Assembly (NCBI GenBank): GCA_000004985.1
Contig: GG738854.1
From: Naegleria gruberi
Lineage: Eukaryota
Length of the DNA: 64,000 bases
Reading direction: 5' to 3' (one strand)
Below are positions 1 to 18,074 of the stretch, in pieces (the stretch's first letter is position 1; each line of letters starts with the position of its first letter). The translations under genes were made by a program, and so were the position numbers. A model generated the notes under the pieces. It made no database searches and was not told the DNA's origin. It saw only the letters and a list, made by a program, of their open reading frames with translations.

Positions 1-245
1 ATATATTTTAGTGAAATTCAATATTTTCACTAAAATCATCATCACCGCCAGATTTATATGATAATTTGGAAAACTTTCAATCTAGTATTGTTCAGCATGG
101 TCGATTCCATCAGGTAAAATTACTTCCGAATATTTTCCTATTGGTTATCATGATGATAGGTTCATGTATATTTTCAACATGTACATATACCATATCTCAA
201 CATGTACTTCACCAACTTGAAAAATGTCTTTCATCACTACTATTC
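1..245. repeat. Left arm of a large inverted repeat (diverged; copy B equivalent about 12290-12813)
   Basis: Positions 30-245 are the reverse complement of 2510-2720, diverged to about 70-80% identity. The core ctcaacatgtacttcaccaacttg matches perfectly for 24 bp, and actaaaatcatcatcac matches for 17 bp. In copy B the inverted arm extends at least 500 bp (12290-12813 vs the reverse complement of 15073-15568). Confidence 0.7.
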
Positions 246-1476
246 AAATAGATAATAAACAATATATTTATTATCAGATTTTTATCATTTTGTGTTTTTG
301 CCAATTTCGGGTTATTCATGGTCACCAATCATGATCCATGCCAAAAGTACACAGCCAATCATCTTGAAACATTAATAAACTTTTATTAGTATTATTGTAG
401 GTGTACTATATAAATTATTTCGTCTTGTTTCGTTGAAATCATGAAGATTTGGATTTTTCTGTTTTTCATTAAATTTCACATCACCTACACCATATTTGTT
501 GATGTAAACTAGACTAGTTACATGTACATAATCAATGGTTGATTCTCTAATCATGTTTTAGTGTTGTTTTGTGTATTTAGGATTTTGAAATCTTGCGAAT
601 TATCCTGAGGTTATTCTTCATATAAATATGATTCCTCACTTCATGATATGAGGAGGGATTGATATCATGATTATTTGGAAGTGTTGTACAAATTTTGGAC
701 ACTATCTTAATTGAAATCAGGTAGAAAGAGTCCAATCTTTAACACCATATAAAATATGACTTGTGGCGATGGTTTTGACCTTGTTGTTCATACCTCCAAC
801 ATTGGAAAAGTAGAATGATAAACACCTTTTCTCATCATATTCAATATTTATGGAAGTTATGACCATAAGGATAAATTTCGCATGACCCAAGCATGCAGAT
901 TTTATTCGCCTAGATAAATTTCGCCTAAATTTTAGGCGAAATAAATCGCCTAGAACATAATCTCTTAAATAACCCAAATAAATCAACTCTGAATCCTAAC
1001 CAACCCCAAGCTCTCGCAGTATATGTTAGTAACTGCTACAAAAATTCATCATGGTACAATCGTCCCACTGACTCCTTCATCAAAAACAAAAAATACACTT
1101 CTGCTTACCAAAGGCAACAGCTGTCCCAACCACTTAGCCCGAACCAAACGTCCAAACACTGAACAGAACTAGATGGTTGAACAGCTAGTCTCTTATATCA
1201 TAACGAAGTAGATGTTGAAAAAGTTGGTTATCTTTGAAATTCAATTGATCTTAATGATGTTTAAGGAAATAAGGTTAATTGTTCGATTTAAGGTGAAAGA
1301 AATGAAATAAAAAGAAAAAACAAGAATTTTATTATTTTAATATCATTGTGTAATGTTCACAATGAGTTTGATAATTTTTGAATCACTCTTGAAGGAGTGA
1401 ATCATAAATAAAAGGTGTAAGTTTATTAATGTCTCTTGTATCAATAACGACCTGAGAGACCACACTTTTTCGGCAT

Positions 1477-2310
1477 TTAAGGACTCTGTGCAACATTTGA
1501 ATGATTTGGGTTAAGATTGAGTGCCGTTGAGTGAGTGTGCCTAAAGTAGGCGGATTGGAATTTTGAGTTTTTGATAAAAGGTTGTCGGGAGGGACGGTTG
1601 TACCACATAGTGTTTTTGTAACAATTTTCTAAATAAATGGCGAATGCCTTGTAAATTTCTAGAGCTACAGCCTTAGGAAGTCTTTTGTTCTTTGACCATA
1701 AGAGCCAGTCGCTGCGAGAGCAGCTTCCGTTAAAATCAATAATAAGGCAGTTCCTCACTTTGTCTGAAGGGAGACGAATCGGATCGAGGTTAAATTTGGA
1801 GGAAATATTGTCCCAAGTAGCATACAGTTCCTGTTTTTCATGGTTGCTTTTAGAGCACGATGAGAAAACGTGTGTCCAGTCTTCGGCAGTTTGACATGAA
1901 TCACAGGTTGTATTGTTATCTAGAATAATAGCGTGGTGAAGGTTTAGGAAAAGGAGTCTTTGTTGATAGTAGGAGAGATGGAAATTTCTCCAAAAGGAAA
2001 CAGTTGAAAGGTGCCAATTAAGATTTGAATCTAACTGGCCCAACTCTGAGATGGTTTTTTTGGATCTTTTGAGTTCAAGAATATCGTTTCGTAAGTTGGT
2101 GATGGGTTTGTGTGACGATCTGTCACAAAGAACCCATCCACTCTCTGTTGGATTGAAGTATGCATTGAGTTTGTTGATATTTAAGGCTGCATTTGTCCAG
2201 AGAGAGTCTGTAGATTTGCCTCGGAGAGCTTTTTGAATCGAGGCCCTTGCAATGTTGCGGGTGATTGTGGATGAGGAGTTCACAAATCTACAGACCGATG
2301 CTGTGCATTC
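1477..2310 (-). mobile_element. Degenerate non-LTR (LINE-like) retrotransposon 3' fragment, 5'-truncated
   Basis: The minus-strand ORF 1477-2541 contains C-D-S-C-x4-E-D-W-T-H-V-F-S-S-C-x13-W. This is the Cys/His pattern of the reverse-transcriptase zinc-binding (zf-RVT-like) tail found at the C-terminus of non-LTR ORF2 proteins. No intact RT motifs are recognisable upstream. The 5' end of the ORF runs into an 83-bp tandem duplication. Confidence 0.4.
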
Positions 2311-2314
2311 AATG

Positions 2315-2480
2315 TCTAACACATCTACAGGAGACGTGACTAGAAATCTCTCTCCAAGCCAAAACACAAAATAATGAAAAACTGATATTAAATATGGTCT
2401 AACACATCTACAGGAGACGTGGCTAGAAATCTCTCTCCAAGCCAAAACACAAAATAATGAAAAACTGATATTAAATATGG
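2315..2480. repeat. 83-bp direct tandem duplication (2 units); the same structure occurs at 14883-15048
   Basis: The unit tctaacacatctacaggagacgtgactagaaatctctctccaagccaaaacacaaaataatgaaaaactgatattaaatatggt is repeated twice head-to-tail with a single substitution (gtgactag/gtggctag). Confidence 0.85.
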
Positions 2481-2504
2481 TGTTTATTAGTGATTTAAAC
2501 AATA

Positions 2505-3000
2505 GTACTAGAAGAAAAGTATCCAAGTTGGTGAAGTACATGTTGAGTTATGGTCCATGTACTTTTTTGAAAATTCACATGTACCTATCCCTATCAAAAC
2601 TTGATGAAAATCCACCGTTCAAATTTACTATGCTACTATTGACCATTTCCAACAATCCTACATTAATAGTTTTCCAATCTTTCCAATGGATTCAACAGTG
2701 ATGATGATTTTAGTAAAATGTTGAGTTTCACCAAAATAAAGATATTTCCAAGACATAGAAATCACCCATACTATTCTACTATATTAAATATATCTATGAT
2801 GACGGTTGGTGAGTGTTCCGATGATGGTTTACCAACTTGAAAAATTATAATCCAAAAATTGATTTACTATTTTATGATGAAAGTCCAATAATAAAAATTA
2901 CTACTATTACTACTATTTAGATGATGTTGAGATGATGATGTGAAAGTTTGGCAGCTTACGGATGTGAAACCACTCGAAGAATCATCAAAGTACATCACGT
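2505..3000. repeat. Right arm of the inverted repeat (copy B equivalent 15073-15568)
   Basis: See the left-arm entry. The two arms flank a 2.27-kb core that holds the LINE fragment and the 83-bp duplication. The arm sequence belongs to a roughly 0.5-0.8 kb repeat family that recurs at 3290-3990. Confidence 0.7.
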
Positions 3001-3289
3001 ACTAGATATTGAAATATTTTTTCACATATTCTTAAATGAACAAACAAACCTTGCTTCAAATGGATGAATGACATGCTATGAGAAAAACAATAAAAACATG
3101 AAAATATCAGATATCCATGATTTTCACAAATTATGCTACAAGACTTGAAATTATACATTTAATAACATAATAAACATTATGAATTGTTGTTTTATTGTTG
3201 TTTGATTTGTAATTGGGCTATGAATCAACTCTGATAGCATCAAATATCGGAACTTGGTAAATTGACAACATGACGAAAATCTGATAATA

Positions 3290-3990
3290 AATATGATGTT
3301 TATTATCTGTTTAAATAGTAGTACTAAAAGACATGATTCAAGTTGGTGAAGTACATGTTGAGTTATAGTCCATGTACTTTTTCAAAATTCACATGTACCT
3401 AACCCTATCATAACTTGACCAAAATTGATAAGAGAAAATTCTCTTACCTACTATTGACCATTCCGAACAATACTACATTGACAGTTTTCCAACTTGTCCA
3501 GTAGATCCAGCAGTGATGATGAATTTAGTGAAAATTTTGACATTTCACCAAAATTACATTACTAAAAATTAATTTCCACAAATACTATTATTATATTGAT
3601 GGGAAACAATAATGATGATGGTTGGTGAATGATCCGATGATGGAACACCAAATTGTGATTTTCCATCATGAAAAATAACTTCCAATTTCATGATGATAAT
3701 CCACCAATAAAAATTACTATTATTACTACTATATAGATCATGTTGAGATGATGATGTGAAAGTTTGGTGGTTTTATGATGTAAAACCACTCCGAAAATCA
3801 TCATGTCCTCCTTGAGTAGATTTTATTTTTAGCCAACAAATTTTTTTTTGTGAAACCAAAGAAAAATCTTTACATAATTTTTCCAAATCATGATTAAATT
3901 CCAAAAGTTACTAGTAATACTATTATTTAAATCATGATGAGATGATGTGGTGAAATTCTTGGAGTTAATAGATGTGAAACTACTCAAAGA
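3290..3990. repeat. Additional direct, diverged copies of the arm repeat family
   Basis: Positions 3290-3560 are about 80% identical to 2480-2720 (gttggtgaagtacatgttgagttat..., ttgaccatt.c.aacaat.ctacatt.a.agttttccaa). Positions 3700-3800 and 3890-3990 repeat the tactattactactat...gatgatgtgaaagtttgg...gaaaccactc motif seen at 2900-2990. The inverted copy is at 12300-12400. Confidence 0.7.
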
Positions 3991-4520
3991 ATCAACAGTC
4001 GTGATGGACTGCTTGTTGCCAATATTTTTGAAATATTTTTGTTCCAGAAATTGAATTCCATTTAATGACTTCCAACATTGAATAAAGTAATATTTTGAAA
4101 CTAATTTTCTGATTATGTTATTGGAGTTGGTTAGTAGAGAGTTTTCTTAGTGTTTTCTGTAAAACACAATACCACGGTTTATGGTTATGATACATTACAG
4201 ATGGATAATATAGTTTATTTTTCAGTAACACTCTAACGTCGACACATTGGTCCCAACTTGTATTAATGTCCTGATAAGGTCATTTCTGGAATTTTGGAAC
4301 AAATAATTTTAAAACAGATATGTAAAATAAAGATTGTTTTGAAATAAAATGCAAAAATCGGTAATCCCTGACCTGTTGAACACATCAACCATTTGGCCAC
4401 ACGCTAAGCTGAAGGCTTCTTTTTGTATGCGTTACGTCTGTATTTGGCTAGCAAATAGATTTCGCACATATGTTTGTTGGAGTGGATAATAATTTGTTTT
4501 AAAATTATTATTGTAAAAAA

Positions 4521-6580
4521 ATGAACTTCGTTATAGTTATCCTTCTTTGCGTTTTTTTTGTAGTGCCAGTAAATACACAAACCCTGCTTTACAACATTAC
4601 CACTGTTGTTGGTGGGGGTAATGTTGGTGATGGTTTAGTTGCAACAAGTGCTAAATTATATTATCCTTCTGGAATTGCCATCAGTTCAAGTGATGAAACT
4701 TATATTGCTGATACAAACAATCATAGAATTCGTAAAATCACAACATCTGGTATAATTTCAACAATTGCTGGAAATGGAACAGCAGGATATAGTGGTGATG
4801 GTTCATCTGCAAAAAGTGCTCAATTATATTATCCTTCTGGAGTTGCCATCAGTTCAAGTGATGAAATTTATATTGTTGATAGAAGCAATAATAGAATTCG
4901 TAAAATCACAACATCTGGTATAATTTCAACAATTGCTGGAAATGGAACAGCAGGATATAGTGGTGATGGTCATCTGCAACAAGTGCTCAATTATATTTTC
5001 CTTCTGGAATTGCCATCAGTTCAAGTGATGAAATTTATATTGCTGATACAAACAATAATAGAATTCGTAAAATCACAACATCTGGTATAATTTCAACTAT
5101 TGCTGGAACTGGAGGGTATATGTTGGTGATGGTTTAGTTGCAACAAGTGCTAAATTATATTATCCTTCTGGAATTGCCATCAGTTCAAGTGATGAAACTT
5201 ATATTGCTGATACAAACAATCATAGAATTCGTAAAATCACAACATCTGGTATAATTTCAACAATTGCTGGAAATGGAACAGCAGGATATAGTGGTGATGG
5301 TTCATCTGCAAAAAGTGCTCAATTATATTATCCTTCTGGAGTTGCCATCAGTTCAAGTGATGAAATTTATATTGTTGATAGAAGCAATAATAGAATTCGT
5401 AAAATCACAACATCTGGTATAATTTCAACAATTGCTGGAAATGGAACAGCAGGATATAGTGGTGATGGTTCATCTGCAACAAGTGCTCAATTAAATTCTC
5501 CTTCTGGAATTGCCATCAGTTCAAGTGATGAAATTTATATTGCTGATATGTTCAATAATAGAATTCGTAAAATCACAACATCTGGTATTATTTCAACAAT
5601 TGCTGGAACTGGAACATCAGGATATAGTGGTGATGGTTCATCTGCAACAAGTATTCAATTATATTTTCCTTATGGAGTTGCAGTAAGTCTAAGTGATGAA
5701 ATTTATATTGCTGATATGTTCAATAATAGAATTCGTAAAATCACAACATCTGGTATCATTTCTACAATTGCTGGTGGTATAGGCGATGGACTATCAGCAA
5801 CTACAGCTTACATTAATGCCATTACGTTCGAATTTTCCTCAAGTGGTGAAATTTATATTGCTGATACAAACAATCATAGAATTCGTAAAATCACAACATC
5901 TGGTATAATTTCAACAATTGCCGGAACTGGAACATCAGGATATAGTGGTGATGGTTCATCTGCAACAAGTGCTCAATTAAATTCTCCTTATGGAATTGCT
6001 ATCAGTTCAAGTGGTGAAATTTATATTGCTGATACAAACAATAATAGAATTCGTAAAATCACAACATCTGGTATAATTTCAACAATTGCTGGAACTGGAA
6101 CACAAGGATATAGTGGTGATGGTTCATCTGCAACAAGTGCTCAATTATATAATCCTTATGGAGTTGCCATCAGTTCAAGAGGTGAAATTTATGTTGCTGA
6201 TTACAATAATAACAGAATTCGTAAAATCACAACATCTGGCATTATTTCAACAATTGCTGGAACTGGAACATCCGGCTATAGTGGTGATGGTTCATCTGCA
6301 ATAAGTGCTCAATTATATAATCCTTATGGAGTTGCCATCAGTTCAAGTGATGAAATTTATATTACTGATACAAACAATAACAGAATCAGAAAACTTAGTC
6401 CTTGGTGCACTGGAAATGCCATTCTTTTAGATGGATCTTGTGAGTATCCATGTTTTGGAACTACAAACAAAATTCCAGCTGTTGTATGCTCTGGAAAAGG
6501 TTCATGTATTGGCTATAATCAATGCAATTGCACAGCTGATTACTTTGGTTACAAATGTGATGAATTTTATTGCTATGAGT
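4521..6580 (+). CDS. 5' part of an NHL-repeat/EGF receptor-kinase paralog, frame-disrupted and ending in an N-gap
   Basis: It starts with a signal peptide, [21 protein letters not shown]. It then carries at least 11 tandem NHL-type repeats of about 56 aa (168 bp), of the form [53 protein letters not shown]. It ends in the first EGF-like repeat, CEYPCFG...CDEFYCYE, at the gap. The reading frame breaks at about 4975, where ggtgatggtcatctg replaces ggtgatggttcatctg (a 1-bp deletion). It breaks again at about 5110, where a roughly 0.5-kb internal tandem duplication (5117-5500 copying 4610-4990) joins. The last 460 bp are nearly identical to 18720-19190. Confidence 0.55.
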
Positions 6581-6648
6581 NNNNNNNNNNNNNNNNNNNN
6601 NNNNNNNNNNNNNNNNNNNNNNNNNNNNNNNNNNNNNNNNNNNNNNNN

Positions 6649-7128
6649 AACCCAAACCCAAACCCAAACCCAAACCCAAACCTTAACCCAAACCCAAACC
6701 CAAACCCAAACCCAAACCCAAACCCAAACCCAAACCCAAACCCAAACCCAAACCCAAACCCAAACCCAAACCCAAACCCAAACCCAAACCCAAACCCAAA
6801 CCCAAACCCAAACCCAAACCCAAACCCAAACCCAAACCCAAACCCAAACCCAAACCCAAACCCAAACCCAAACCCAAACCCAAACCCAAACCCAAACCCT
6901 AAACCCAAACCCAAACCCAAACCCAAACCCAAACCCAAACCCAAACCCAAACCCAAACCCAAACCCAAACCCAAACCCAAACCCAAACCCAAACCCAAAC
7001 CCAAACCCAAACCCAAACCCAAACCCAAACCCAAACCCAAACCCAAACCCAAACCCAAACCCAAACCCAAACCCAAACCCAAACCCAAACCCAAACCCAA
7101 ACCCAAACCCAAACACAAACCCACACAC
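6649..7128. repeat. Telomeric repeat tract (CCCAAA)n, i.e. (TTTGGG)n on the G-strand
   Basis: About 78 perfect 6-bp units of aaccca/cccaaa, with a few variants (ccttaaccc, ccctaaaccc) and the distal end cccaaacacaaacccacacac. It is preceded by the 68-N gap (6581-6648). Confidence 0.9.
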
Positions 7129-10100
7129 TATTGATACCATTGTGTTCACAATTGAAAATCTAGTCGATTGATATTAGTTTCATCAATTGGTAATATTAAT
7201 ATGGTCAATTAGGGTATCTCAAAGTCAATTTTGAAAAACTAAGAGTAGCTATATAAAATGTCTAATAAATCATAATTATATATCAAAACTGATATCAAAA
7301 TGCTTCAAATTACATATATAACATGATAGAATTGAAATAAATATCATATCTCATATTAAATATTGAGATAGTCAATTAAGGTACCTCAATATGGAAGTAC
7401 CCTAAGGATAATGAGATTCATTACCAAATTGATACAATATGTTATTAACATCATATAATGATGTTCCTATCAATTTCATATCATTTGGACATCATTCAAC
7501 ATTCATGTCATTCAACCATGTCAGCAACTACTCATGGCAATATGAAAAGTCAATATCAAGAGTTGCAACAAGATAGAGTATCATACCACTACTCTTATAA
7601 TTGATATTGATAACGTTTCTGAGTGATAGAAATCAATATCTATATAATTGGAATATCTGCCAAGCTACTGTCCTAATTGATCAAAGGTATCATTCTTACA
7701 TGTCAATAATGGTAAGAATCAATACCAATTCAATATTATCATGTTATAATCATCATATACTCTCNNNNNNNNNNNNNNNNNNNNNNNNNNNNNNNNNNNN
7801 NNNNNNNNNNNNNNNNNNNNNNNNNNNNNNNNNNNNNNNNNNNNNNNNNNNNNNNNNNNNNNNNNNNNNNNNNNNNNNNNNNNNNNNNNNNNNNNNNNNN
7901 NNNNNNNNNNNNNNNNNNNNNNNNNNNNNNNNNNNNNNNNNNNNNNNNNNNNNNNNNNNNNNNNNNNNNNNNNNNNNNNNNNNNNNNNNNNNNNNNNNNN
8001 NNNNNNNNNNNNNNNNNNNNNNNNNNNNNNNNNNNNNNNNNNNNNNNNNNNNNNNNNNNNNNNNNNNNNNNNNNNNNNNNNNNNNNNNNNNNNNNNNNNN
8101 NNNNNNNNNNNNNNNNNNNNNNNNNNNNNNNNNNNNNNNNNNNNNNNNNNNNNNNNNNNNNNNNNNNNNNNNNNNNNNNNNNNNNNNNNNNNNNNNNNNN
8201 NNNNNNNNNNNNNNNNNNNNNNNNNNNNNNNNNNNNNNNNNNNNNNNNNNNNNNNNNNNNNNNNNNNNNNNNNNNNNNNNNNNNNNNNNNNNNNNNNNNN
8301 NNNNNNNNNNNNNNNNNNNNNNNNNNNNNNNNNNNNNNNNNNNNNNNNNNNNNNNNNNNNNNNNNNNNNNNNNNNNNNNNNNNNNNNNNNNNNNNNNNNN
8401 NNNNNNNNNNNNNNNNNNNNNNNNNNNNNNNNNNNNNNNNNNNNNNNNNNNNNNNNNNNNNNNNNNNNNNNNNNNNNNNNNNNNNNNNNNNNNNNNNNNN
8501 NNNNNNNNNNNNNNNNNNNNNNNNNNNNNNNNNNNNNNNNNNNNNNNNNNNNNNNNNNNNNNNNNNNNNNNNNNNNNNNNNNNNNNNNNNNNNNNNNNNN
8601 NNNNNNNNNNNNNNNNNNNNNNNNNNNNNNNNNNNNNNNNNNNNNNNNNNNNNNNNNNNNNNNNNNNNNNNNNNNNNNNNNNNNNNNNNNNNNNNNNNNN
8701 NNNNNNNNNNNNNNNNNNNNNNNNNNNNNNNNNNNNNNNNNNNNNNNNNNNNNNNNNNNNNNNNNNNNNNNNNNNNNNNNNNNNNNNNNNNNNNNNNNNN
8801 NNNNNNNNNNNNNNNNNNNNNNNNNNNNNNNNNNNNNNNNNNNNNNNNNNNNNNNNNNNNNNNNNNNNNNNNNNNNNNNNNNNNNNNNNNNNNNNNNNNN
8901 NNNNNNNNNNNNNNNNNNNNNNNNNNNNNNNNNNNNNNNNNNNNNNNNNNNNNNNNNNNNNNNNNNNNNNNNNNNNNNNNNNNNNNNNNNNNNNNNNNNN
9001 NNNNNNNNNNNNNNNNNNNNNNNNNNNNNNNNNNNNNNNNNNNNNNNNNNNNNNNNNNNNNNNNNNNNNNNNNNNNNNNNNNNNNNNNNNNNNNNNNNNN
9101 NNNNNNNNNNNNNNNNNNNNNNNNNNNNNNNNNNNNNNNNNNNNNNNNNNNNNNNNNNNNNNNNNNNNNNNNNNNNNNNNNNNNNNNNNNNNNNNNNNNN
9201 NNNNNNNNNNNNNNNNNNNNNNNNNNNNNNNNNNNNNNNNNNNNNNNNNNNNNNNNNNNNNNNNNNNNNNNNNNNNNNNNNNNNNNNNNNNNNNNNNNNN
9301 NNNNNNNNNNNNNNNNNNNNNNNNNNNNNNNNNNNNNNNNNNNNNNNNNNNNNNNNNNNNNNNNNNNNNNNNNNNNNNNNNNNNNNNNNNNNNNNNNNNN
9401 NNNNNNNNNNNNNNNNNNNNNNNNNNNNNNNNNNNNNNNNNNNNNNNNNNNNNNNNNNNNNNNNNNNNNNNNNNNNNNNNNNNNNNNNNNNNNNNNNNNN
9501 NNNNNNNNNNNNNNNNNNNNNNNNNNNNNNNNNNNNNNNNNNNNNNNNNNNNNNNNNNNNNNNNNNNNNNNNNNNNNNNNNNNNNNNNNNNNNNNNNNNN
9601 NNNNNNNNNNNNNNNNNNNNNNNNNNNNNNNNNNNNNNNNNNNNNNNNNNNNNNNNNNNNNNNNNNNNNNNNNNNNNNNNNNNNNNNNNNNNNNNNNNNN
9701 NNNNNNNNNNNNNNNNNNNNNNNNNNNNNNNNNNNNNNNNNNNNNNNNNNNNNNNNNNNNNNNNNNNNNNNNNNNNNNNNNNNNNNNNNNNNNNNNNNNN
9801 NNNNNNNNNNNNNNNNNNNNNNNNNNNNNNNNNNNNNNNNNNNNNNNNNNNNNNNNNNNNNNNNNNNNNNNNNNNNNNNNNNNNNNNNNNNNNNNNNNNN
9901 NNNNNNNNNNNNNNNNNNNNNNNNNNNNNNNNNNNNNNNNNNNNNNNNNNNNNNNNNNNNNNNNNNNNNNNNNNNNNNNNNNNNNNNNNNNNNNNNNNNN
10001 NNNNNNNNNNNNNNNNNNNNNNNNNNNNNNNNNNNNNNNNNNNNNNNNNNNNNNNNNNNNNNNNNNNNNNNNNNNNNNNNNNNNNNNNNNNNNNNNNNNN

Positions 10101-11217
10101 NNNNNNNNNNNNNNNNNNNNNNNNNNNNNNNNNNNNNNNNNNNNNNNNNNNNNNNNNNNNNNNNNNNNNNNNNNNNNNNNNNNNNNNNNNNNNNNNNNNN
10201 NNNNNNNNNNNNNNNNNNNNNNNNNNNNNNNNNNNNNNNNNNNNNNNNNNNNNNNNNNNNNNNNNNNNNNNNNNNNNNNNNNNNNNNNNNNNNNNNNNNN
10301 NNNNNNNNNNNNNNNNNNNNNNNNNNNNNNNNNNNNNNNNNNNNNNNNNNNNNNNNNNNNNNNNNNNNNNNNNNNNNNNNNNNNNNNNNNNNNNNNNNNN
10401 NNNNNNNNNNNNNNNNNNNNNNNNNNNNNNNNNNNNNNNNNNNNNNNNNNNNNNNNNNNNNNNNNNNNNNNNNNNNNNNNNNNNNNNNNNNNNNNNNNNN
10501 NNNNNNNNNNNNNNNNNNNNNNNNNNNNNNNNNNNNNNNNNNNNNNNNNNNNNNNNNNNNNNNNNNNNNNNNNNNNNNNNNNNNNNNNNNNNNNNNNNNN
10601 NNNNNNNNNNNNNNNNNNNNNNNNNNNNNNNNNNNNNNNNNNNNNNNNNNNNNNNNNNNNNNNNNNNNNNNNNNNNNNNNNNNNNNNNNNNNNNNNNNNN
10701 NNNNNNNNNNNNNNNNNNNNNNNNNNNNNNNNNNNNNNNNNNNNNNNNNNNNNNNNNNNNNNNNNNNNNNNNNNNNNNNNNNNNNNNNNNNNNNNNNNNN
10801 NNNNNNNNNNNNNNNNNNNNNNNNNNNNNNNNNNNNNNNNNNNNNNNNNNNNNNNNNNNNNNNNNNNNNNNNNNNNNNNNNNNNNNNNNNNNNNNNNNNN
10901 NNNNNNNNNNNNNNNNNNNNNNNNNNNNNNNNNNNNNNNNNNNNNNNNNNNNNNNNNNNNNNNNNNNNNNNNNNNNNNNNNNNNNNNNNNNNNNNNNNNN
11001 NNNNNNNNNNNNNNNNNNNNNNNNNNNNNNNNNNNNNNNNNNNNNNNNNNNNNNNNNNNNNNNNNNNNNNNNNNNNNNNNNNNNNNNNNNNNNNNNNNNN
11101 NNNNNNNNNNNNNNNNNNNNNNNNNNNNNNNNNNNNNNNNNNNNNNNNNNNNNNNNNNNNNNNNNNNNNNNNNNNNNNNNNNNNNNNNNNNNNNNNNNNN
11201 NNNNNNNNNNNNNNNNN

Positions 11218-12010
11218 ATGGTCTTTGATTAAATTTAAAAATAGACTGCCGTTAATTACTGGAATATTAATATTCAAAGCTTGTTGATCAAGCTATTGAT
11301 TGAAATCAAACCGATTATTGAATATTGATCATTGAATTGGTGAATAATCACTCTTGATAATGCTAGATATTTCATATTGCATGCAAATCAACCTGATTCA
11401 ATCTACAAAGGTTGGTAGTTGCACCACTTCGTGGCGAAACTACCATTCCACGATGAATCAACAAAGAATCACTTCCATTCAACTCAATTTGACCGTTATA
11501 ATCAATAAATCAATGAAATGTTCCTTTATTAGCAATACCTGTTCAATCTAATGAGTATATTCACGTCCCAAACATTTGACTTCTCAAAGTCCATAATACA
11601 AAAGTTAGTTCTGACCTGACCTTTATAAATCTATCAATATAAGAAATGAAACCATCAAATTTACATCATTAATAGATTATAAGAAATATAATCAATGATA
11701 TAAATCTTCATTAAGTAATCTCTTAAATAACCCAAATAAATCAACTCTGAATCCTAACCAAACCCCCCAGTTTCCAGATCACAAAAGTCAAGATACTATA
11801 TATGGTCTTTGATTAAATTTAAAAATAGACTGCCGTTAATTACTGGAATATTAATTCAAAGCTTGTTGATCAAGGTATTGATTCAAATCAAACCGATTAT
11901 TGAATATTGATCATTGAATTGGTGAATAATCACTATCTTGATAATGTTACTTATTCATATTGCATGCAAATCAACCTGATTCAATCTACAAAGGTTGGTA
12001 GTTGCGAAAC
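11218..12010. repeat. Tandem repeat of about 585 bp (1.35 copies; second copy carries internal deletions)
   Basis: atggtctttgattaaatttaaaaatagactgccgttaattactggaatattaat...ggtgaataatcact...gcatgcaaatcaacctgattcaatctacaaaggttggtagttgc... begins both at 11218 and at 11803. Copy 1 contains the hairpin tggtagttgcaccacttcgtggcgaaactacca. The motif atctcttaaataacccaaataaatcaactctgaatcctaacca at 11720-11762 also occurs at 956-1000 and 13524-13568. Confidence 0.8.
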
Positions 12011-12568
12011 TACCCATCCACGATCAATCAACATTAGATTCACTGACCGGACCTTTAAATATCTATCAATATAAGAAATGAAACCATCAAATTTACATCA
12101 TTTATAGATGATAAGAATTATAATCAATGATATCAATCTTCACTAAGTAATCTGTTATAGGCGAAAAAAAACTGCCTGACAAACCATGCAAAAAAAACTG
12201 TTCGCATAATTAAGCTATGCGAAAAATATCTTTGGACATACCGATCCTTAGTTATAATCAATCAACAAGAACTTGGAAAAATAGTTCAAAAATATTGACA
12301 ACAAGTAAGTCCATCACGACTCTGTTGATTCTTGGAGTAGTTTCACATCTATTAATTTTAAGAATTTCACCACATCATCTCATCATCATTTAAATAGTAG
12401 TATTAATAGTAATTTTTGGAATTTAATTGTTCATCATGATTTGGAAATAATTTTATTATTTGGAAAAATTCAAGTTGGTACATCATCATCGGAACAACTA
12501 CCAACCATCATCATTGTTATTTACCATCATTATAATAGTAATATTTGTGGAAATAAATCTGATAATAA

Positions 12569-15500
12569 TAATATTTTAGTGAAATTCAATATTTTCACTA
12601 AAATCATCATCACCGCCAGATTTATATGATAATTTGGAAAACTTTCAATCTAGTATTGTTCAGCATGGTCGATTCCATCAGGTAAAATTACTTCCGAATA
12701 TTTTCCTATTGGTTATCATGATGATAGGTTCATGTATATTTTCAACATGTACATATACCATATCTCAACATGTACTTCACCAACTTGAAAAATGTCTTTC
12801 ATCACTACTATTCAAATAGATAATAAACAATATATTTATTATCAGATTTTTATCATTTTGTGTTTTTGCCAATTTCGGGTTATTCATGGTCACCAATCAT
12901 GATCCATGCCAAAAGTACACAGCCAATCATCTTGAAACATTAATAAACTTTTATTAGTATTATTGTAGGTGTACTATATAAATTATTTCGTCTTGTTTCG
13001 TTGAAATCATGAAGATTTGGATTTTTCTGTTTTTCATTAAATTTCACATCACCTACACCATATTTGTTGATGTAAACTAGACTAGTTACATGTACATAAT
13101 CAATGGTTGATTCTCTAATCATGTTTTAGTGTTGTTTTGTGTATTTAGGATTTTGAAATCTTGCGAATTATCCTGAGGTTATTCTTCATATAAATATGAT
13201 TCCTCACTTCATGATATGAGGAGGGATTGATATCATGATTATTTGGAAGTGTTGTACAAATTTTGGACACTATCTTAATTGAAATCAGGTAGAAAGAGTC
13301 CAATCTTTAACACCATATAAAATATGACTTGTGGCGATGGTTTTGACCTTGTTGTTCATACCTCCAACATTGGAAAAGTAGAATGATAAACACCTTTTCT
13401 CATCATATTCAATATTTATGGAAGTTATGACCATAAGGATAAATTTCGCATGACCCAAGCATGCAGATTTTATTCGCCTAGATAAATTTCGCCTAAATTT
13501 TAGGCGAAATAAATCGCCTAGAACATAATCTCTTAAATAACCCAAATAAATCAACTCTGAATCCTAACCAACCCCAAGCTCTCGCAGTATATGTTAGTAA
13601 CTGCTACAAAAATTCATCATGGTACAATCGTCCCACTGACTCCTTCATCAAAAACAAAAAATACACTTCTGCTTACCAAAGGCAACAGCTGTCCCAACCA
13701 CTTAGCCCGAACCAAACGTCCAAACACTGAACAGAACTAGATGGTTGAACAGCTAGTCTCTTATATCATAACGAAGTAGATGTTGAAAAAGTTGGTTATC
13801 TTTGAAATTCAATTGATCTTAATGATGTTTAAGGAAATAAGGTTAATTGTTCGATTTAAGGTGAAAGAAATGAAATAAAAAGAAAAAACAAGAATTTTAT
13901 TATTTTAATATCATTGTGTAATGTTCACAATGAGTTTGATAATTTTTGAATCACTCTTGAAGGAGTGAATCATAAATAAAAGGTGTAAGTTTATTAATGT
14001 CTCTTGTATCAATAACGACCTGAGAGACCACACTTTTTCGGCATTTAAGGACTCTGTGCAACATTTGAATGATTTGGGTTAAGATTGAGTGCCGTTGAGT
14101 GAGTGTGCCTAAAGTAGGCGGATTGGAATTTTGAGTTTTTGATAAAAGGTTGTCGGGAGGGACGGTTGTACCACATAGTGTTTTTGTAACAATTTTCTAA
14201 ATAAATGGCGAATGCCTTGTAAATTTCTAGAGCTACAGCCTTAGGAAGTCTTTTGTTCTTTGACCATAAGAGCCAGTCGCTGCGAGAGCAGCTTCCGTTA
14301 AAATCAATAATAAGGCAGTTCCTCACTTTGTCTGAAGGGAGACGAATCGGATCGAGGTTAAATTTGGAGGAAATATTGTCCCAAGTAGCATACAGTTCCT
14401 GTTTTTCATGGTTGCTTTTAGAGCACGATGAGAAAACGTGTGTCCAGTCTTCGGCAGTTTGACATGAATCACAGGTTGTATTGTTATCTAGAATAATAGC
14501 GTGGTGAAGGTTTAGGAAAAGGAGTCTTTGTTGATAGTAGGAGAGATGGAAATTTCTCCAAAAGGAAACAGTTGAAAGGTGCCAATTAAGATTTGAATCT
14601 AACTGGCCCAACTCTGAGATGGTTTTTTTGGATCTTTTGAGTTCAAGAATATCGTTTCGTAAGTTGGTGATGGGTTTGTGTGACGATCTGTCACAAAGAA
14701 CCCATCCACTCTCTGTTGGATTGAAGTATGCATTGAGTTTGTTGATATTTAAGGCTGCATTTGTCCAGAGAGAGTCTGTAGATTTGCCTCGGAGAGCTTT
14801 TTGAATCGAGGCCCTTGCAATGTTGCGGGTGATTGTGGATGAGGAGTTCACAAATCTACAGACCGATGCTGTGCATTCAATGTCTAACACATCTACAGGA
14901 GACGTGACTAGAAATCTCTCTCCAAGCCAAAACACAAAATAATGAAAAACTGATATTAAATATGGTCTAACACATCTACAGGAGACGTGGCTAGAAATCT
15001 CTCTCCAAGCCAAAACACAAAATAATGAAAAACTGATATTAAATATGGTGTTTATTAGTGATTTAAACAATAGTACTAGAAGAAAAGTATCCAAGTTGGT
15101 GAAGTACATGTTGAGTTATGGTCCATGTACTTTTTTGAAAATTCACATGTACCTATCCCTATCAAAACTTGATGAAAATCCACCGTTCAAATTTACTATG
15201 CTACTATTGACCATTTCCAACAATCCTACATTAATAGTTTTCCAATCTTTCCAATGGATTCAACAGTGATGATGATTTTAGTAAAATGTTGAGTTTCACC
15301 AAAATAAAGATATTTCCAAGACATAGAAATCACCCATACTATTCTACTATATTAAATATATCTATGATGACGGTTGGTGAGTGTTCCGATGATGGTTTAC
15401 CAACTTGAAAAATTATAATCCAAAAATTGATTTACTATTTTATGATGAAAGTCCAATAATAAAAATTACTACTATTACTACTATTTAGATGATGTTGAGA

Positions 15501-15624
15501 TGATGATGTGAAAGTTTGGCAGCTTACGGATGTGAAACCACTCGAAGAATCATCAAAGTACATCACGTACTAGATGTTGAAATATTTTTTCACATATTCT
15601 TAACTGAACAAACAAACCTTGCTT
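12569..15624. repeat. Segmental duplication copy B (same block as 1-3056)
   Basis: Same ORF set as 1-3056 shifted by 12568 (66/12634, 1477/14045, 2477/15045). The sequence runs upstream into the left inverted arm at 12290-12568. Confidence 0.85.
14045..14878 (-). mobile_element. Second copy of the LINE-like 3' fragment, inside duplication copy B
   Basis: Identical 354-aa minus-strand ORF (14045-15109) with the same zf-RVT-like motif. Confidence 0.4.
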
Positions 15625-15991
15625 CAAAAAATCAACCAAACTCTCGTAATACCTTGCTTGGTTTTCGTTCCAACAATTCAAGCCAAACAACACAAGAGAA
15701 TCTATTTAATATAATTGGAAAATTCAATTGTATAAATGTATCATTCAATTTATCGGTGTTACTAAGGTTGTGCATTTTCCATTTTGGTTTACCGTCATCA
15801 GTATTAAGCGGATGCTCTTCTCCCGTCTTTAGTAAGAAACTGAGTGTTCTCCGTCTCATCCGTCCCCCGTTTCACCGTCACTTAGTACCATCTCTACAGG
15901 ATTTCTTGTAGCTCCTTTTTCAACAGAAAAAAAGAATTATTTAATAAGTTGTGCTCATTGTTGTAAGAATCATTCCTCATCTGAAACAATA

Positions 15992-16206
15992 ATGACATTG
16001 AAAAAAGTATATGGAAGCTTTAATCAAACTAAGGATATCGAAAAAACACAACAGTATTGTTTTGAATGTCAAATTGAAGCAGTGGGAGATTATGAAAAGA
16101 TATCTGAAAGCGGGATTGCAGAAGACTGGGCCATCCTCTCATTTGAAAACTATATGGAGTATGGTTCTCCAAACTATTTAATACCATCCCCATCTCAGGT
16201 ATAAAG
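15992..16206 (+). other. Possible 5' gene fragment running into the N-gap (unresolved)
   Basis: The ORF MTLKKVYGSFNQTKDIEKTQQYCFECQIEAV...SPNYLIPSPSQV is open to the gap at 16207. It has no identifiable domain and lies in the unique sequence distal to duplication copy B. Confidence 0.2.
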
Positions 16207-17601
16207 NNNNNNNNNNNNNNNNNNNNNNNNNNNNNNNNNNNNNNNNNNNNNNNNNNNNNNNNNNNNNNNNNNNNNNNNNNNNNNNNNNNNNNNNNNNNNN
16301 NNNNNNNNNNNNNNNNNNNNNNNNNNNNNNNNNNNNNNNNNNNNNNNNNNNNNNNNNNNNNNNNNNNNNNNNNNNNNNNNNNNNNNNNNNNNNNNNNNNN
16401 NNNNNNNNNNNNNNNNNNNNNNNNNNNNNNNNNNNNNNNNNNNNNNNNNNNNNNNNNNNNNNNNNNNNNNNNNNNNNNNNNNNNNNNNNNNNNNNNNNNN
16501 NNNNNNNNNNNNNNNNNNNNNNNNNNNNNNNNNNNNNNNNNNNNNNNNNNNNNNNNNNNNNNNNNNNNNNNNNNNNNNNNNNNNNNNNNNNNNNNNNNNN
16601 NNNNNNNNNNNNNNNNNNNNNNNNNNNNNNNNNNNNNNNNNNNNNNNNNNNNNNNNNNNNNNNNNNNNNNNNNNNNNNNNNNNNNNNNNNNNNNNNNNNN
16701 NNNNNNNNNNNNNNNNNNNNNNNNNNNNNNNNNNNNNNNNNNNNNNNNNNNNNNNNNNNNNNNNNNNNNNNNNNNNNNNNNNNNNNNNNNNNNNNNNNNN
16801 NNNNNNNNNNNNNNNNNNNNNNNNNNNNNNNNNNNNNNNNNNNNNNNNNNNNNNNNNNNNNNNNNNNNNNNNNNNNNNNNNNNNNNNNNNNNNNNNNNNN
16901 NNNNNNNNNNNNNNNNNNNNNNNNNNNNNNNNNNNNNNNNNNNNNNNNNNNNNNNNNNNNNNNNNNNNNNNNNNNNNNNNNNNNNNNNNNNNNNNNNNNN
17001 NNNNNNNNNNNNNNNNNNNNNNNNNNNNNNNNNNNNNNNNNNNNNNNNNNNNNNNNNNNNNNNNNNNNNNNNNNNNNNNNNNNNNNNNNNNNNNNNNNNN
17101 NNNNNNNNNNNNNNNNNNNNNNNNNNNNNNNNNNNNNNNNNNNNNNNNNNNNNNNNNNNNNNNNNNNNNNNNNNNNNNNNNNNNNNNNNNNNNNNNNNNN
17201 NNNNNNNNNNNNNNNNNNNNNNNNNNNNNNNNNNNNNNNNNNNNNNNNNNNNNNNNNNNNNNNNNNNNNNNNNNNNNNNNNNNNNNNNNNNNNNNNNNNN
17301 NNNNNNNNNNNNNNNNNNNNNNNNNNNNNNNNNNNNNNNNNNNNNNNNNNNNNNNNNNNNNNNNNNNNNNNNNNNNNNNNNNNNNNNNNNNNNNNNNNNN
17401 NNNNNNNNNNNNNNNNNNNNNNNNNNNNNNNNNNNNNNNNNNNNNNNNNNNNNNNNNNNNNNNNNNNNNNNNNNNNNNNNNNNNNNNNNNNNNNNNNNNN
17501 NNNNNNNNNNNNNNNNNNNNNNNNNNNNNNNNNNNNNNNNNNNNNNNNNNNNNNNNNNNNNNNNNNNNNNNNNNNNNNNNNNNNNNNNNNNNNNNNNNNN
17601 N

Positions 17602-18074
17602 AACCCAAACCCAAACCCAAACCCAAGGGCAAACCCAAACCCAAACCCAAACCCAAAGCCAAACCCAAACCCAAACCCAAACCCAAACCCAAACCCAAAC
17701 CCAAACCCAAACCCAAACCCAAACCCAAACCCAAACCCAAACCCAAACCCAAACCCAAACCCAAACCCAAACCCAAACCCAAACCCAAACCCAAACCCAA
17801 ACCCAAACCCAAACCCAAACCCAAACCCAAACCCAACCCAAACCCAAACCCAAACCCAAACCCAAACCCAAACCCAAACCCAAACCCAAACCCAAACCCA
17901 AACCCAAACCCAAACCCAACCCAAACCCAAACCCAAACCCAAACCCAAACCCAAACCCAAACCCAAACCCAAACCCAAACCCAAACCCAAACCCAAACCC
18001 AAACCCAAACCCAAACCCAAACCCAAACCCAAACCCAAACCCAAACCCAACCCACCCAAACCCAACCCAAACCC
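17602..18074. repeat. Telomeric repeat tract (CCCAAA)n joined directly to coding sequence
   Basis: About 78 units of CCCAAA with sparse variants (cccaagggc, cccaaagcc, cccaaccca). It is preceded by the N-gap 16207-17601 and is followed immediately at 18075 by in-frame NHL-repeat coding sequence (t caa tta tat aat cct tat gga gtt gcc...). Confidence 0.9.

What the first reader, a model, noticed from the sequence alone, without database searches (positions are those of the whole stretch)
1..3000. Palindromic architecture: inverted repeat arms of at least 0.5 kb flanking a retroelement fragment
Arm sequence at 30-245 (and about 12290-12813 in copy B) is the reverse complement of 2510-2990 (15073-15568 in copy B). 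The perfect cores are ctcaacatgtacttcaccaacttg and actaaaatcatcatcac. The arms enclose a 2.27-kb segment holding the LINE-like fragment. The same arm unit is also tandemly reiterated in direct orientation at 3290-3990. Large inverted repeats of this kind at chromosome ends are hotspots for hairpin formation, breakage-fusion and subtelomeric rearrangement. They could also be the remains of a composite element that captured the retroelement.
Basis: seen in the sequence. Interest (0 to 1): 0.5.

Follow-up and report, generated by a model that had tools for sequence, protein, structure and literature searches.

The report
Diverged inverted subtelomeric repeats around LINE tails
The inverted repeat is real, but it is two old, 71-73%-identical copies of a local non-coding repeat near a Naegleria chromosome end, with two young retrotransposon fragments inserted between them, so it is ordinary subtelomeric debris and not an active palindrome or a composite mobile element.

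Summary
A ~0.6-kb unit (U) lies inverted at 1-320 (full copy 12277-12888) and direct at 2358-3021 (=14926-15589). A third direct copy lies at 3238-3803, with a partial unit at 3865-4040.

The two arms are the least similar pair of the three copies. U is non-coding. No other U copy lies in the remaining 48 kb of the window.

The spacer holds two 5'-truncated non-LTR retrotransposon tails, tail to tail: 1007-~1322 (+) and ~1327-2340 (-). They are 98% and 99.3% identical in protein to other Naegleria gruberi copies. They are therefore far younger than the arms and were inserted into an existing inverted pair about 0.7 kb apart.

(CCCAAA)n arrays, the candidate N. gruberi telomere repeat, lie 2-5 kb away.

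The 3-kb module occurs twice, with 2 mismatches in 3058 bp. That is either a recent duplication or assembly redundancy.

At this divergence and spacing, cruciform formation in duplex DNA is not expected. Fold-back in resected single-stranded DNA is borderline. Composite-element capture is not supported.

Verdict: an ordinary subtelomeric mosaic of low interest. The genome-wide distribution of U could not be tested.

The parts
1..320 (-). Left arm in copy A. This is unit U1 in minus orientation and is cut by the window start. Weak U homology continues inward to about 491.
   Evidence: 4-301 vs 2738-2441 at 72.7%, and 5-308 vs 3554-3250 at 77.2%; nhmmer hit 491-4 (-); 321-520 vs 3040-3237, z = 6.8.
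321..1006 (.). Non-LINE part of the spacer, probably the ancestral spacer of about 0.7 kb. It holds a small palindrome at 897-963 and a 70-nt piece shared with the V repeat at 938-1007.
   Evidence: no LINE protein similarity here; 938-1007 matches 11697-11765 at 87%; inverted repeat I8. ORFs here have no Pfam hits.
1007..1322 (+). LINE-B. This is the 5'-truncated 3' end of a non-LTR retrotransposon: the last ~55 codons, a 1-nt frameshift, a 3' UTR and an A-rich tail.
   Evidence: 47/48 aa identical to the P0003 C-terminus, plus 7/7 aa after the frameshift (37/38 over 1007-1120); 60% nucleotide homology to the LINE-A 3' region, score 51.5 against a shuffle maximum of 23.
1327..2340 (-). LINE-A. 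This is the 5'-truncated 3' part of a second non-LTR retrotransposon subfamily: 287 codons of the post-RT C-terminal domain with a CX2CX7HX4C motif, a stop codon at 1477-1479, a 3' UTR and an A-rich tail that meets the LINE-B tail.
   Evidence: 285/287 aa identical to P0006 residues 417-703 (N. gruberi); 76% to P0001; 57% to P0007 residues 392-657, downstream of its RVT_1 domain (E 6e-33).
2314..2479 (+). 83-bp tandem duplication (2 copies, 1 mismatch) spanning the LINE-A 5' truncation point and the first ~40 nt of U2.
   Evidence: family D4, 99%. (period 83, 2.0 copies).
2358..3021 (+). Right arm, unit U2 in plus orientation. Its 5' extension is missing where it meets the LINE-A junction.
3238..4040 (+). 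Unit U3, a direct copy about 30-50 bp after U2. It has a weak 5' extension from ~3070 and an extra copy of the 3' sub-repeat at 3865-4040.
   Evidence: 2449-2987 vs 3265-3803 at 77.4%, and 3876-4040 vs 12452-12277 at 87.5%; family D1..
12277..12888 (-). Full-length left arm (U1) in copy B. Weak homology extends inward to 13059.
   Evidence: 12288-12869 vs 15589-15009 at 71.4% over 594 nt, and 3250-3803 vs 12876-12323 at 75.7%..
12571..15628 (+). Copy B of the whole module (U1 part, spacer, LINE-B, LINE-A, U2). It differs from 3-3060 only at 3008/15576 and 3036/15604.
14926..15589 (+). Right arm (U2) in copy B.
6649..7123 (+). (AACCCA)~79 telomere-type array, placed directly after a 68-N gap. 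It is context that marks the region as subtelomeric.
17602..18074 (+). Second (AACCCA)~80 array, placed directly after a 1395-N gap. It abuts a truncated NHL-repeat gene.

Best explanation
The 'palindrome' is a passive by-product of subtelomere turnover in Naegleria gruberi or a very close relative. A non-coding repeat unit (U) has a core of about 0.6 kb, or about 0.79 kb with a weakly conserved 5' extension. It is present in three old paralogous copies within the telomere-proximal 16 kb of the window. Two copies lie head-to-tail (U2, U3), and one is inverted so that its 5' end faces U2 (U1).

Inferred history:
1. The U copies arose by local duplication, with one inversion or inverted duplication. 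They then diverged to 71-77% identity. The inverted pair was then about 0.7 kb apart.
2. Much later, two non-LTR retrotransposons of different subfamilies inserted into that spacer. Each was 5'-truncated, as is usual for target-primed reverse transcription. They ended tail to tail and widened the spacer to about 2.04 kb.
3. An 83-bp tandem duplication formed across the LINE-A/U2 junction.
4. The whole module of at least 3 kb was copied to a second place, or the same or an allelic locus was assembled twice.

Shown: the repeat geometry, the identities, the non-coding nature of U, the retroelement identity and youth of the insertions, and the nearby telomere-type arrays.

Inferred: the order of events, the duplication and inversion mechanism, and the subtelomeric position of the module.

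The pair has no demonstrated function. In duplex DNA it should be structurally inert. As single-stranded DNA the arms can pair in silico, so fold-back after deep resection of an uncapped end is the only plausible, and marginal, route to instability.
For: Geometry and significance.

The arms are the least similar pair. U1-U2 is 71.1-71.5%, U1-U3 is 74.8-75.7% and U2-U3 is 77.3-77.4%.

U is non-coding.
- Every frame holds 6-29 stop codons, and tblastx shows similar similarity in all frames.
- Substitutions are evenly spread over codon positions, p = 0.18-0.99.
- There are no Pfam hits and no protein-database hit.
- There is no Rfam family at gathering score and no tRNA.
- There is no covariation support for an RNA fold.

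U is confined to 1-16 kb of the 64-kb window.

Retroelement identity: the LINE-A fragment aligns at 57% to P0007 residues 392-657, directly downstream of its RVT_1 domain.

Youth of the insertions: LINE-A is 285/287 aa identical to P0006, which extends further 5' into the element and so is an independent copy. LINE-B is 47/48 aa identical to P0003 (37/38 over 1007-1120). The two tails are only about 54% identical in protein and 60% in nucleotides to each other.

Organism and telomere context: all named hits are N. gruberi. (AACCCA)n arrays are present, and TTTGGG is the candidate N. gruberi telomere repeat (PMC3622300).

Structural potential:
- In the minimum-energy fold of 12277-15589 as single-stranded DNA, 362 of 612 left-arm nucleotides pair with the right arm.
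- The duplex gain is -146 kcal/mol, against -593 for perfect arms and -9.7 +/- 2.5 for shuffled arms.
- The yeast thresholds are given in PMC10164571.
Against: The genome-wide distribution of U is unknown. No tool here holds a Naegleria genome, so 'subtelomere-restricted local repeat' rests on one 64-kb window.

All three copies end at about the same 3' point (3021-3038, 4040, 12271-12277). The A/B homology stops at 3060, within 22-39 bp of the U2 end. Discrete ends fit a mobile element as well as they fit duplication.

The 24-nt core is invariant in three copies that are otherwise about 56% invariant (permutation p about 2.5e-4). This hints at constraint or a conversion patch that a purely passive model does not explain.

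The tail-to-tail LINE junction (~1324) lies almost midway between the inner arm ends (1004 vs 1034 bp). I take this as coincidence.

Both telomere-type arrays border N gaps, and both are oriented as left ends. The scaffold order, and hence the exact distance of the module from a true chromosome end, is therefore uncertain.
Confidence: 0.6

Rival explanations
1. U is a non-autonomous mobile element, or the terminal part of an uncharacterised one. The inverted pair is simply two independent old insertions in opposite orientation in a transposon-tolerant subtelomere. The U2-U3 tandem reflects insertion preference or a later duplication.
For: The 3' ends of the U copies fall within a few tens of bp of each other and are followed by unrelated flanks in four contexts: 3060+, 4041+, 12270- and 15629+. 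U1 is a solitary copy whose two ends match the phase of the tandem pair. The region demonstrably accepts mobile elements, since it holds two LINE insertions.
Against: I saw no terminal inverted repeats, target-site duplications or Helitron-like or SINE-like ends when reading the termini. The termini are too fuzzy for a rigorous test. U shows no similarity to either LINE 3' UTR (self-BLAST). There is no tRNA-like part. There are no copies in the other 48 kb of the window. There are no exact core matches in metagenome contigs.
Confidence: 0.2
2. The inverted pair is the decayed scar of an ancient fold-back inverted duplication, of the breakage-fusion-bridge or hairpin-capped-break type, at a chromosome end. 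The LINE insertions later filled its centre.
For: The arrangement is head-to-head with an inferred ancestral spacer of only about 0.7 kb. The location is telomere-proximal. A nearby gene is capped directly by telomere repeats, which shows that ends break and heal here. The centre contains a short palindrome at 897-963.
Against: The arms are less alike (71%) than either is to the direct copy U3 (75-77%). The inversion is therefore not the most recent duplication, and U already existed as a family. The 5' extension present next to U1 (321-491) has no mirrored partner on the U2 side. Arm homology stops after about 0.6-0.8 kb, whereas a fold-back would be expected to mirror everything distal to the break.
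Confidence: 0.12
3. The structure is a composite or foldback-type element whose inverted arms mobilised or captured the retroelement fragment.
For: It has inverted arms around a retroelement-containing centre. The whole 3-kb module is present twice at 99.93% identity.
Against: The arms are about 28% diverged, while the enclosed LINE tails are 1-3% from other genomic copies. The cargo is therefore much younger than the 'termini'. The A/B homology ends at 3060, 22-39 bp beyond the outer end of the right arm, and its left boundary is unknown because copy A is cut by the window start. No target-site duplication was evident outside the arms. The same unit also occurs as a direct repeat.
Confidence: 0.03
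4. This is an assembly artefact. Either the inverted arrangement is a chimeric join, or copy A and copy B are one locus (or two alleles) assembled twice and mis-scaffolded.
For: Copy A begins at window base 3. The two copies are identical over 3-3007 and differ only at 3008 and 3036. Three N gaps break the first 18 kb. Both telomere-type arrays sit directly after gaps in 'left end' orientation, which is hard to reconcile with a simple linear order.
Against: Artefactual inverted joins give near-identical arms, not 71% identity with many indels. The same U1-LINE-LINE-U2 order was assembled in two contigs with different right flanks (3061+ vs 15629+). The inverted repeat itself is therefore very probably real (artefact below 0.05). 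Redundancy of copies A and B remains quite possible, at about 0.35. The confidence given for this rival is for the inverted repeat being an artefact.
Confidence: 0.04

Closest known systems
Subtelomeric repeat mosaics, such as yeast X/Y' elements with internal TG1-3 tracts and human subtelomeric duplicons bounded by interstitial (TTAGGG)n. The comparison is from general knowledge and was not tested here.
   Same: These are non-coding or degenerate repeat blocks confined to chromosome-end regions. They occur in variable orientation and copy number, are interspersed with telomere-type tracts and mobile-element fragments, and show recent near-identical block duplication between or within ends.
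   Different: U has no sequence relation to any described family. No helicase or other ORF is present, unlike Y'. The subtelomeric restriction of U is inferred from one window only. The scaffold order around the telomere tracts is uncertain.
Nested or abutting 5'-truncated non-LTR (LINE) insertions
   Same: Both central fragments keep the 3' end (C-terminal ORF2 domain, 3' UTR, A-rich tail) and lack the 5' part. Their relatives carry an RVT_1 domain. Near-identical copies exist elsewhere in the genome.
   Different: No target-site duplications could be defined. The clade of the element was not determined. The endonuclease and RT domains are absent from the window copies.
Long inverted repeats and quasi-palindromes that cause fragility, such as inverted Alu pairs in yeast (PMC10164571) or the human Y-chromosome palindromes (general knowledge)
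   Same: The geometry is the same: two arms of several hundred bp in inverted orientation on one molecule. The arms can pair in silico as single-stranded DNA.
   Different: Identity is 71-73% with many indels, and the spacer is 2.04 kb. Fragile or maintained palindromes have arms that are at least about 86-100% identical and usually short spacers. There is no sign of arm-to-arm gene conversion here.
Foldback or composite transposons and DIRS-type elements with inverted terminal repeats
   Same: They have inverted arms flanking an internal segment with retroelement coding sequence.
   Different: The arms are far older than the interior. The interior is two unrelated LINE tails with no tyrosine recombinase or transposase. 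No target-site duplication was found. The arm unit also occurs in direct tandem.

Membership tests
Structure-forming long inverted repeat or maintained palindrome | Arms with high identity (roughly 86% or more, and typically above 94-99% for fragile or maintained palindromes) | tested here: not met
   Identity is 71.1-72.7% with 77 gap columns in 620. The longest perfect run is 24 nt. The thresholds come from PMC10164571.
Structure-forming long inverted repeat or maintained palindrome | Short spacer (tens of bp for cruciform extrusion in duplex DNA) | tested here: not met
   The spacer is 2037-2139 bp now, and the inferred spacer before the LINE insertions was about 0.7 kb.
Structure-forming long inverted repeat or maintained palindrome | Arms more similar to each other than to other family members (arm-to-arm conversion) | tested here: not met
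   U1-U2 at 71% is the lowest of the three pairwise identities. U1-U3 is 75-76% and U2-U3 is 77%.
Structure-forming long inverted repeat or maintained palindrome | Arms able to anneal intramolecularly when single-stranded | tested here: met
   In the in-silico DNA minimum-energy fold of 12277-15589, 362 of 612 left-arm nucleotides pair with the right arm. The duplex gain is -146 kcal/mol against -9.7 for shuffled arms and -593 for perfect arms. This is thermodynamic prediction only.
Non-LTR (LINE) retrotransposon fragment (central segment) | Homology to a protein family that carries a reverse-transcriptase domain | tested here: met
   The fragment 2340-1477 aligns at 57% to P0007 residues 392-657. 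P0007 residues 48-293 match RVT_1 with E 6e-33. The window fragment itself has no Pfam hit.
Non-LTR (LINE) retrotransposon fragment (central segment) | 5' truncation with an intact 3' end and an A-rich tail, and multiple genomic copies with different truncation points | tested here: met
   LINE-A starts at residue 417 of P0006, whose LINE part extends further 5'. LINE-B keeps only the last ~55 codons. The A-rich tails meet at 1320-1327.
Non-LTR (LINE) retrotransposon fragment (central segment) | Target-site duplication flanking each insertion, and absence of LTRs | tested here: inconclusive
   No target-site duplication could be recognised at 1006/1323 or 1326/2341. No direct long repeats flank the fragments, and the flanking U units are inverted. 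A full-length consensus was not available.
Composite or foldback transposon | Terminal inverted repeats of similar age to the cargo, with target-site duplication at the outer ends | tested here: not met
   The arms are about 28% diverged, while the cargo is 1-3% from other copies. There is no evident duplication at 12250-12276 versus 15590-15630.
Subtelomeric repeat family | Located next to telomeric repeat arrays | tested here: met
   (AACCCA)79 arrays lie about 5.1 kb and about 2.0 kb from copy B, counting the estimated gaps. TTTGGG is the candidate N. gruberi telomere repeat. Scaffold order across the gaps is unverified.
Subtelomeric repeat family | Copies shared among several chromosome ends and absent from chromosome interiors | not testable with these tools
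   No Naegleria genome is searchable here. Within the window, U is absent from 16-64 kb. Metagenome scans for two U cores found nothing.

The most novel reading that the evidence does not exclude
U, with its 24-nt core that is invariant in all copies (CAAGTTGGTGAAGTACATGTTGAG), could be a functional Naegleria subtelomeric module. The block [U-LINE-U ... gene], repeated distal to successive internal (TTTGGG)n tracts, would then be a Y'-like amplifiable end cassette. That would document repeated breakage, telomere healing and recombinational end-extension in a heterolobosean whose chromosome ends have never been described.
Probability: 0.1. Interest if true: 0.45.

Novelty: new member of a known kind. 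Interest (0 to 1): 0.15.

Why it matters
It matters little as a palindrome. The arms are too diverged and too far apart to be a credible structural hotspot in duplex DNA, and nothing suggests a new kind of mobile element.

Its modest value is descriptive. Chromosome ends of Naegleria are essentially undescribed; a 2013 survey states that no information was available and only proposes TTTGGG from genome data (PMC3622300). This window shows a first sketch of what lies next to those repeats:
- a non-coding ~0.6-0.8-kb repeat family;
- recently active non-LTR retrotransposons;
- degenerate NHL-EGF-kinase receptor genes;
- a gene truncated directly by a telomere-type array;
- a near-identical 3-kb block duplication.

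It also flags probable scaffolding or redundancy problems in the first 18 kb of this scaffold.

Tried and rejected
1. U as coding sequence: rejected. All frames hold stop codons, there is no frame preference, and there is no codon-position bias. There are no Pfam hits. The 106-aa open stretch 12309-12626 found no protein homologue.

2. U as a structured RNA, snoRNA cluster or tRNA-derived SINE: rejected. The only Rfam hit at E below 1 in 1-16300 is outside U, at 11429-11565, and is below the gathering score. There are no tRNAs. RNAalifold around the invariant core gives -10.4 kcal/mol with an unfavourable covariation term.

3. U as part of the LINE (5' or 3' UTR, or a SINE partner): no similarity between U and the LINE 3' regions. 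This could not be tested against a full-length element.

4. The left half of the spacer (321-1006) as a mirrored, decayed LINE, which would make the whole region a true old palindrome: rejected. tblastn with seven LINE proteins finds nothing there. The region has no inverted self-match beyond the 67-nt palindrome at 897-963.

5. Finding other U copies: failed. Exact-core scans of metagenome contigs returned 0 hits twice.

6. Fetching Naegleria genomic context: failed. The look-up of encoding contigs has no record for P0001, P0002, P0003 or three window ORFs.

7. Early guesses at the organism (bdelloid rotifer, ciliate, Rhizophagus): dropped once the LINE hits and the TTTGGG literature pointed to Naegleria.

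8. DIRS-like or Penelope-like identity for the central fragment: considered from memory and dropped. The relatives have a plain RVT_1 domain plus a CCHC-type C-terminal domain. The window fragments are 5'-truncated with A-rich tails.
Full report
**Origin and setting**

The window is AT-rich (31.5% G+C) and has three N gaps at 6581-6648, 7765-11217 and 16207-17601. It is therefore a draft scaffold.

The central retroelement ORF finds only Naegleria gruberi proteins among its named hits. One N. gruberi gene model, P0006, is 285/287 aa identical to the window fragment.

Two arrays of about 79 AACCCA units lie at 6649-7123 and 17602-18074. TTTGGG is the candidate telomere repeat reported for N. 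gruberi from genome data (PMC3622300). I conclude that the window is from N. gruberi or a very close relative, and that its first ~18 kb is telomere-associated sequence.

**Check of the observation**

The inverted repeat is real.
- In copy A, 4-301 pairs with 2738-2441 at 72.7% over 300 nt, E 6e-40. Copy A's left arm is cut by the start of the window.
- In copy B, the full arms 12288-12869 and 15589-15009 align over 594 columns at 71.4%, E 5e-68.
- A global alignment gives 71.1% identity over 620 columns, 77 of them gap columns. The longest perfect run is 24 nt, and six perfect runs are at least 12 nt long.

The 24-mer occurs five times in the window against 0 expected by chance.

The direct copy is also real. 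2449-2987 matches 3265-3803 at 77.4%. The last ~133-176 nt of the unit occur once more at 3865-4040.

3-3060 equals 12571-15628 except at two positions, 3008 and 3036.

**Anatomy of the arm unit (U)**

I call the unit U. There are three independent copies:
- U1, 12277-12888, minus orientation. Its copy-A equivalent is 1-320.
- U2, 2358-3021, plus orientation, equal to 14926-15589 in copy B.
- U3, 3238-3803, plus orientation, with the extra 3' sub-repeat at 3865-4040.

U1 and U3 share a further, weakly conserved ~170-nt 5' extension, 321-491 against 3070-3237 (z = 6.8 against shuffles). U2 lacks this extension where it meets the retroelement. U2 and U3 are head-to-tail, about 30-50 bp apart. 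U1 faces U2 5' end to 5' end.

Pairwise identities are 71% for U1-U2, 75-76% for U1-U3 and 77% for U2-U3. The two 'palindrome arms' are therefore the least similar pair.

A profile built from the three copies finds no further copy in the remaining 48 kb of the window.

U is non-coding.
- Every frame carries 6-29 stop codons, and tblastx similarity is alike in all frames.
- Substitutions fall evenly on the three codon positions of the longest open stretches, p = 0.18-0.99.
- Its ORFs have no Pfam hits, and its longest open stretch has no protein homologue.

U is not a known RNA.
- No Rfam family reaches its gathering score.
- There is no tRNA.
- There is no covariation support for a fold around the core.

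One feature remains unexplained by neutral decay. The 24-mer CAAGTTGGTGAAGTACATGTTGAG is invariant in all copies, although only 56% of alignment columns are invariant (permutation p about 2.5e-4).

**Anatomy of the centre**

The spacer holds two retroelement fragments, not one.

LINE-A lies on the minus strand at 2340-~1327.
- It encodes 287 residues ending at the stop codon 1477-1479, with a CX2CX7HX4C motif.
- It aligns at 57% to residues 392-657 of P0007. Residues 48-293 of P0007 are an RVT_1 reverse-transcriptase domain, E 6e-33.
- It is thus the post-RT C-terminal part of a non-LTR-type element, truncated at its 5' end.

LINE-B lies on the plus strand at 1007-~1322.
- It is a very short 3' fragment of another subfamily.
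- It is 47/48 aa identical to the C-terminus of N. gruberi P0003, and a further 7/7 aa after a 1-nt frameshift. Over 1007-1120 alone it is 37/38.

The two fragments are only about 54% identical in protein and 60% in nucleotides to each other. Their A-rich tails meet at 1320-1327, six bases apart.

The P0006 LINE part runs further 5' than the window's LINE-A. These are therefore independent insertions of one recently active subfamily.

The rest of the spacer, 321-1006, has no LINE similarity. It contains a 67-nt palindrome at 897-963 and a 70-nt piece shared with another local repeat, 938-1007 against 11697-11765. That match ends exactly where LINE-B begins.

An 83-bp tandem duplication at 2314-2479, with one mismatch, spans the LINE-A/U2 junction.

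**Relative ages and history (inference)**

- The arms differ by about 28%.
- The LINE tails differ by 1-3% (protein) from copies elsewhere.
- The junction duplication differs by about 1%.
- Copies A and B differ by 0.07%.

The inverted pair is therefore old and stood about 0.7 kb apart (321-1006 plus 2341-2357). Two retrotransposons then landed between the arms. The junction duplication and the 3-kb block copy came after the LINE insertions. This order rules out the idea that the arms 'captured' the retroelement.

The origin of the inversion itself cannot be resolved from one window. It could be a local inversion within a U array, an inverted duplication, or independent insertion of a mobile U.

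**Can it act as a hairpin hotspot?**

In yeast, lowering inverted-Alu homology from 100% to 75% lowers rearrangement rates about 1087-fold. At 65% homology the effect is gone. A 1.5-kb spacer costs a further ~31-fold. Only in long single-stranded DNA made after telomere uncapping are 75% homology and kilobase spacers tolerated (PMC10164571).

The present arms are 71-73% identical, 2.04 kb apart and about 28% G+C. They are at or below that limit.

In silico, the 3.3-kb region folded as single-stranded DNA does pair 362 of 612 left-arm nucleotides with the right arm. The arm duplex gains -146 kcal/mol. That is a quarter of the -593 kcal/mol of a perfect palindrome, but far more than the -9.7 of shuffled arms.

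Cruciform extrusion in duplex DNA is therefore not credible. Fold-back after deep resection of an uncapped end cannot be excluded, but it is marginal.

**Assembly caveats**

Copy A starts at the first bases of the window and is identical to copy B up to position 3007. The two copies then continue into different sequence, 3061+ against 15629+.

Both telomere-type arrays follow N gaps directly, and both are oriented as left chromosome ends. The second abuts a truncated NHL repeat (cccaaaccc|TCAATTATATAATCC at 18074).

There are two readings:
- These are interstitial telomere tracts between stacked subtelomeric blocks. This is a known architecture in other organisms.
- Contigs from different ends or alleles were scaffolded together.

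The inverted repeat itself, with 71% arms assembled twice, is very unlikely to be an artefact.

**Comparison with known systems**

The closest descriptions are a subtelomeric repeat mosaic and abutting 5'-truncated LINE insertions.

The structure fails the defining features of a maintained or fragile palindrome: arm identity, spacer length and arm-to-arm homogenisation. It also fails those of a composite or foldback element: termini of the same age as the cargo, and target-site duplications.

Whether U is shared among chromosome ends could not be tested. No Naegleria genome is searchable with these tools. Two metagenome scans and six contig look-ups returned nothing.

**Verdict**

The interpretation as a palindromic hotspot or composite element is not supported. 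This is an ordinary, decayed piece of subtelomeric architecture in an organism whose chromosome ends are poorly described. Interest is low (0.15), and novelty is 'new member of a known kind'.

Noticed in passing
window 17602-18110: A ~80-unit (AACCCA)n array sits directly after a 1395-N gap and runs straight into the middle of an NHL repeat of an NHL-EGF-kinase gene (cccaaaccc|TCAATTATATAATCC at 18074). This looks like a chromosome break healed by telomere addition, or a true left telomere onto which unrelated contigs were scaffolded.
   Followed up: partly
window 6649-7126: This is a second (AACCCA)~79 array in the same orientation, directly after a 68-N gap that follows the 5' part of a paralogous or allelic NHL gene. 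Its variant repeats differ from those of the other array, so the two arrays are distinct sequences.
   Followed up: partly
window 3-3060 vs 12571-15628: This is a 3058-bp duplication with only two mismatches (3008 and 3036), both in the last 53 bp before the breakpoint. Copy A begins at the window start. It is either a recent subtelomeric block duplication or a redundant or allelic assembly.
   Followed up: partly
window 4521-6580 and 18074-24028: The NHL-repeat gene has a 168-bp period, with about 10.6 and 5.4 copies in the two places. The upstream copy has a signal-peptide-like start but at least two frameshifts. 5486-6580 is 95.9% identical to 18074-19175. The downstream copy continues into EGF repeats and a protein kinase domain. 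These may be subtelomeric pseudogenes, or assembly errors within the repeats.
   Followed up: partly
window 2314-2479: An 83-bp tandem duplication (2 copies, 1 mismatch) covers exactly the junction between the 5'-truncated LINE-A end and the start of U2. It therefore arose after the LINE insertion.
   Followed up: yes
window 11218-12160: Another local repeat (V) has a period of about 584 bp. 11218-11473 matches 11802-12044 at 88.8%, and the repeat runs into the 3.4-kb gap. A 70-nt piece of it (11697-11765) recurs at 938-1007 and ends exactly at the LINE-B 5' junction.
   Followed up: partly
window 196-219, 2524-2547, 3339-3362, 12764-12787, 15092-15115: The 24-nt core CAAGTTGGTGAAGTACATGTTGAG is invariant in all U copies, although the units are otherwise only 71-77% alike (permutation p about 2.5e-4). 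It could be a constrained site or a conversion patch. No RNA structure or known motif was found.
   Followed up: partly
protein P0006 (N. gruberi gene model, 703 aa): Its N-terminus has a PB1 domain, and its last ~340 residues are a LINE ORF2 tail 99.3% identical to the window's LINE-A. It is probably a chimeric gene prediction that fuses a host gene with a retrotransposon fragment.
   Followed up: partly
window 52931-63403: This is an intronless 3490-aa ORF with 22 Big_9, 16 Cadherin_4 and 18 Cadherin_5 (bacterial-type Ig/cadherin-like) repeats plus a VWA domain. It is a giant adhesin-like protein of bacterial flavour in a eukaryotic scaffold.
   Followed up: no
window 24456-27026: A minus-strand 856-aa ORF combines a protein kinase domain with ten DUF4116 repeats. 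The repeats show up as a diverged ~75-nt periodicity at 24494-25555.
   Followed up: no
window 15677-15789: The sequence to the right of U2 in copy B is weakly similar (z = 5.5 against shuffles) to the 5' extension of U1. This hints that a further, mostly lost U unit once followed U2 there, as U3 does in copy A.
   Followed up: partly
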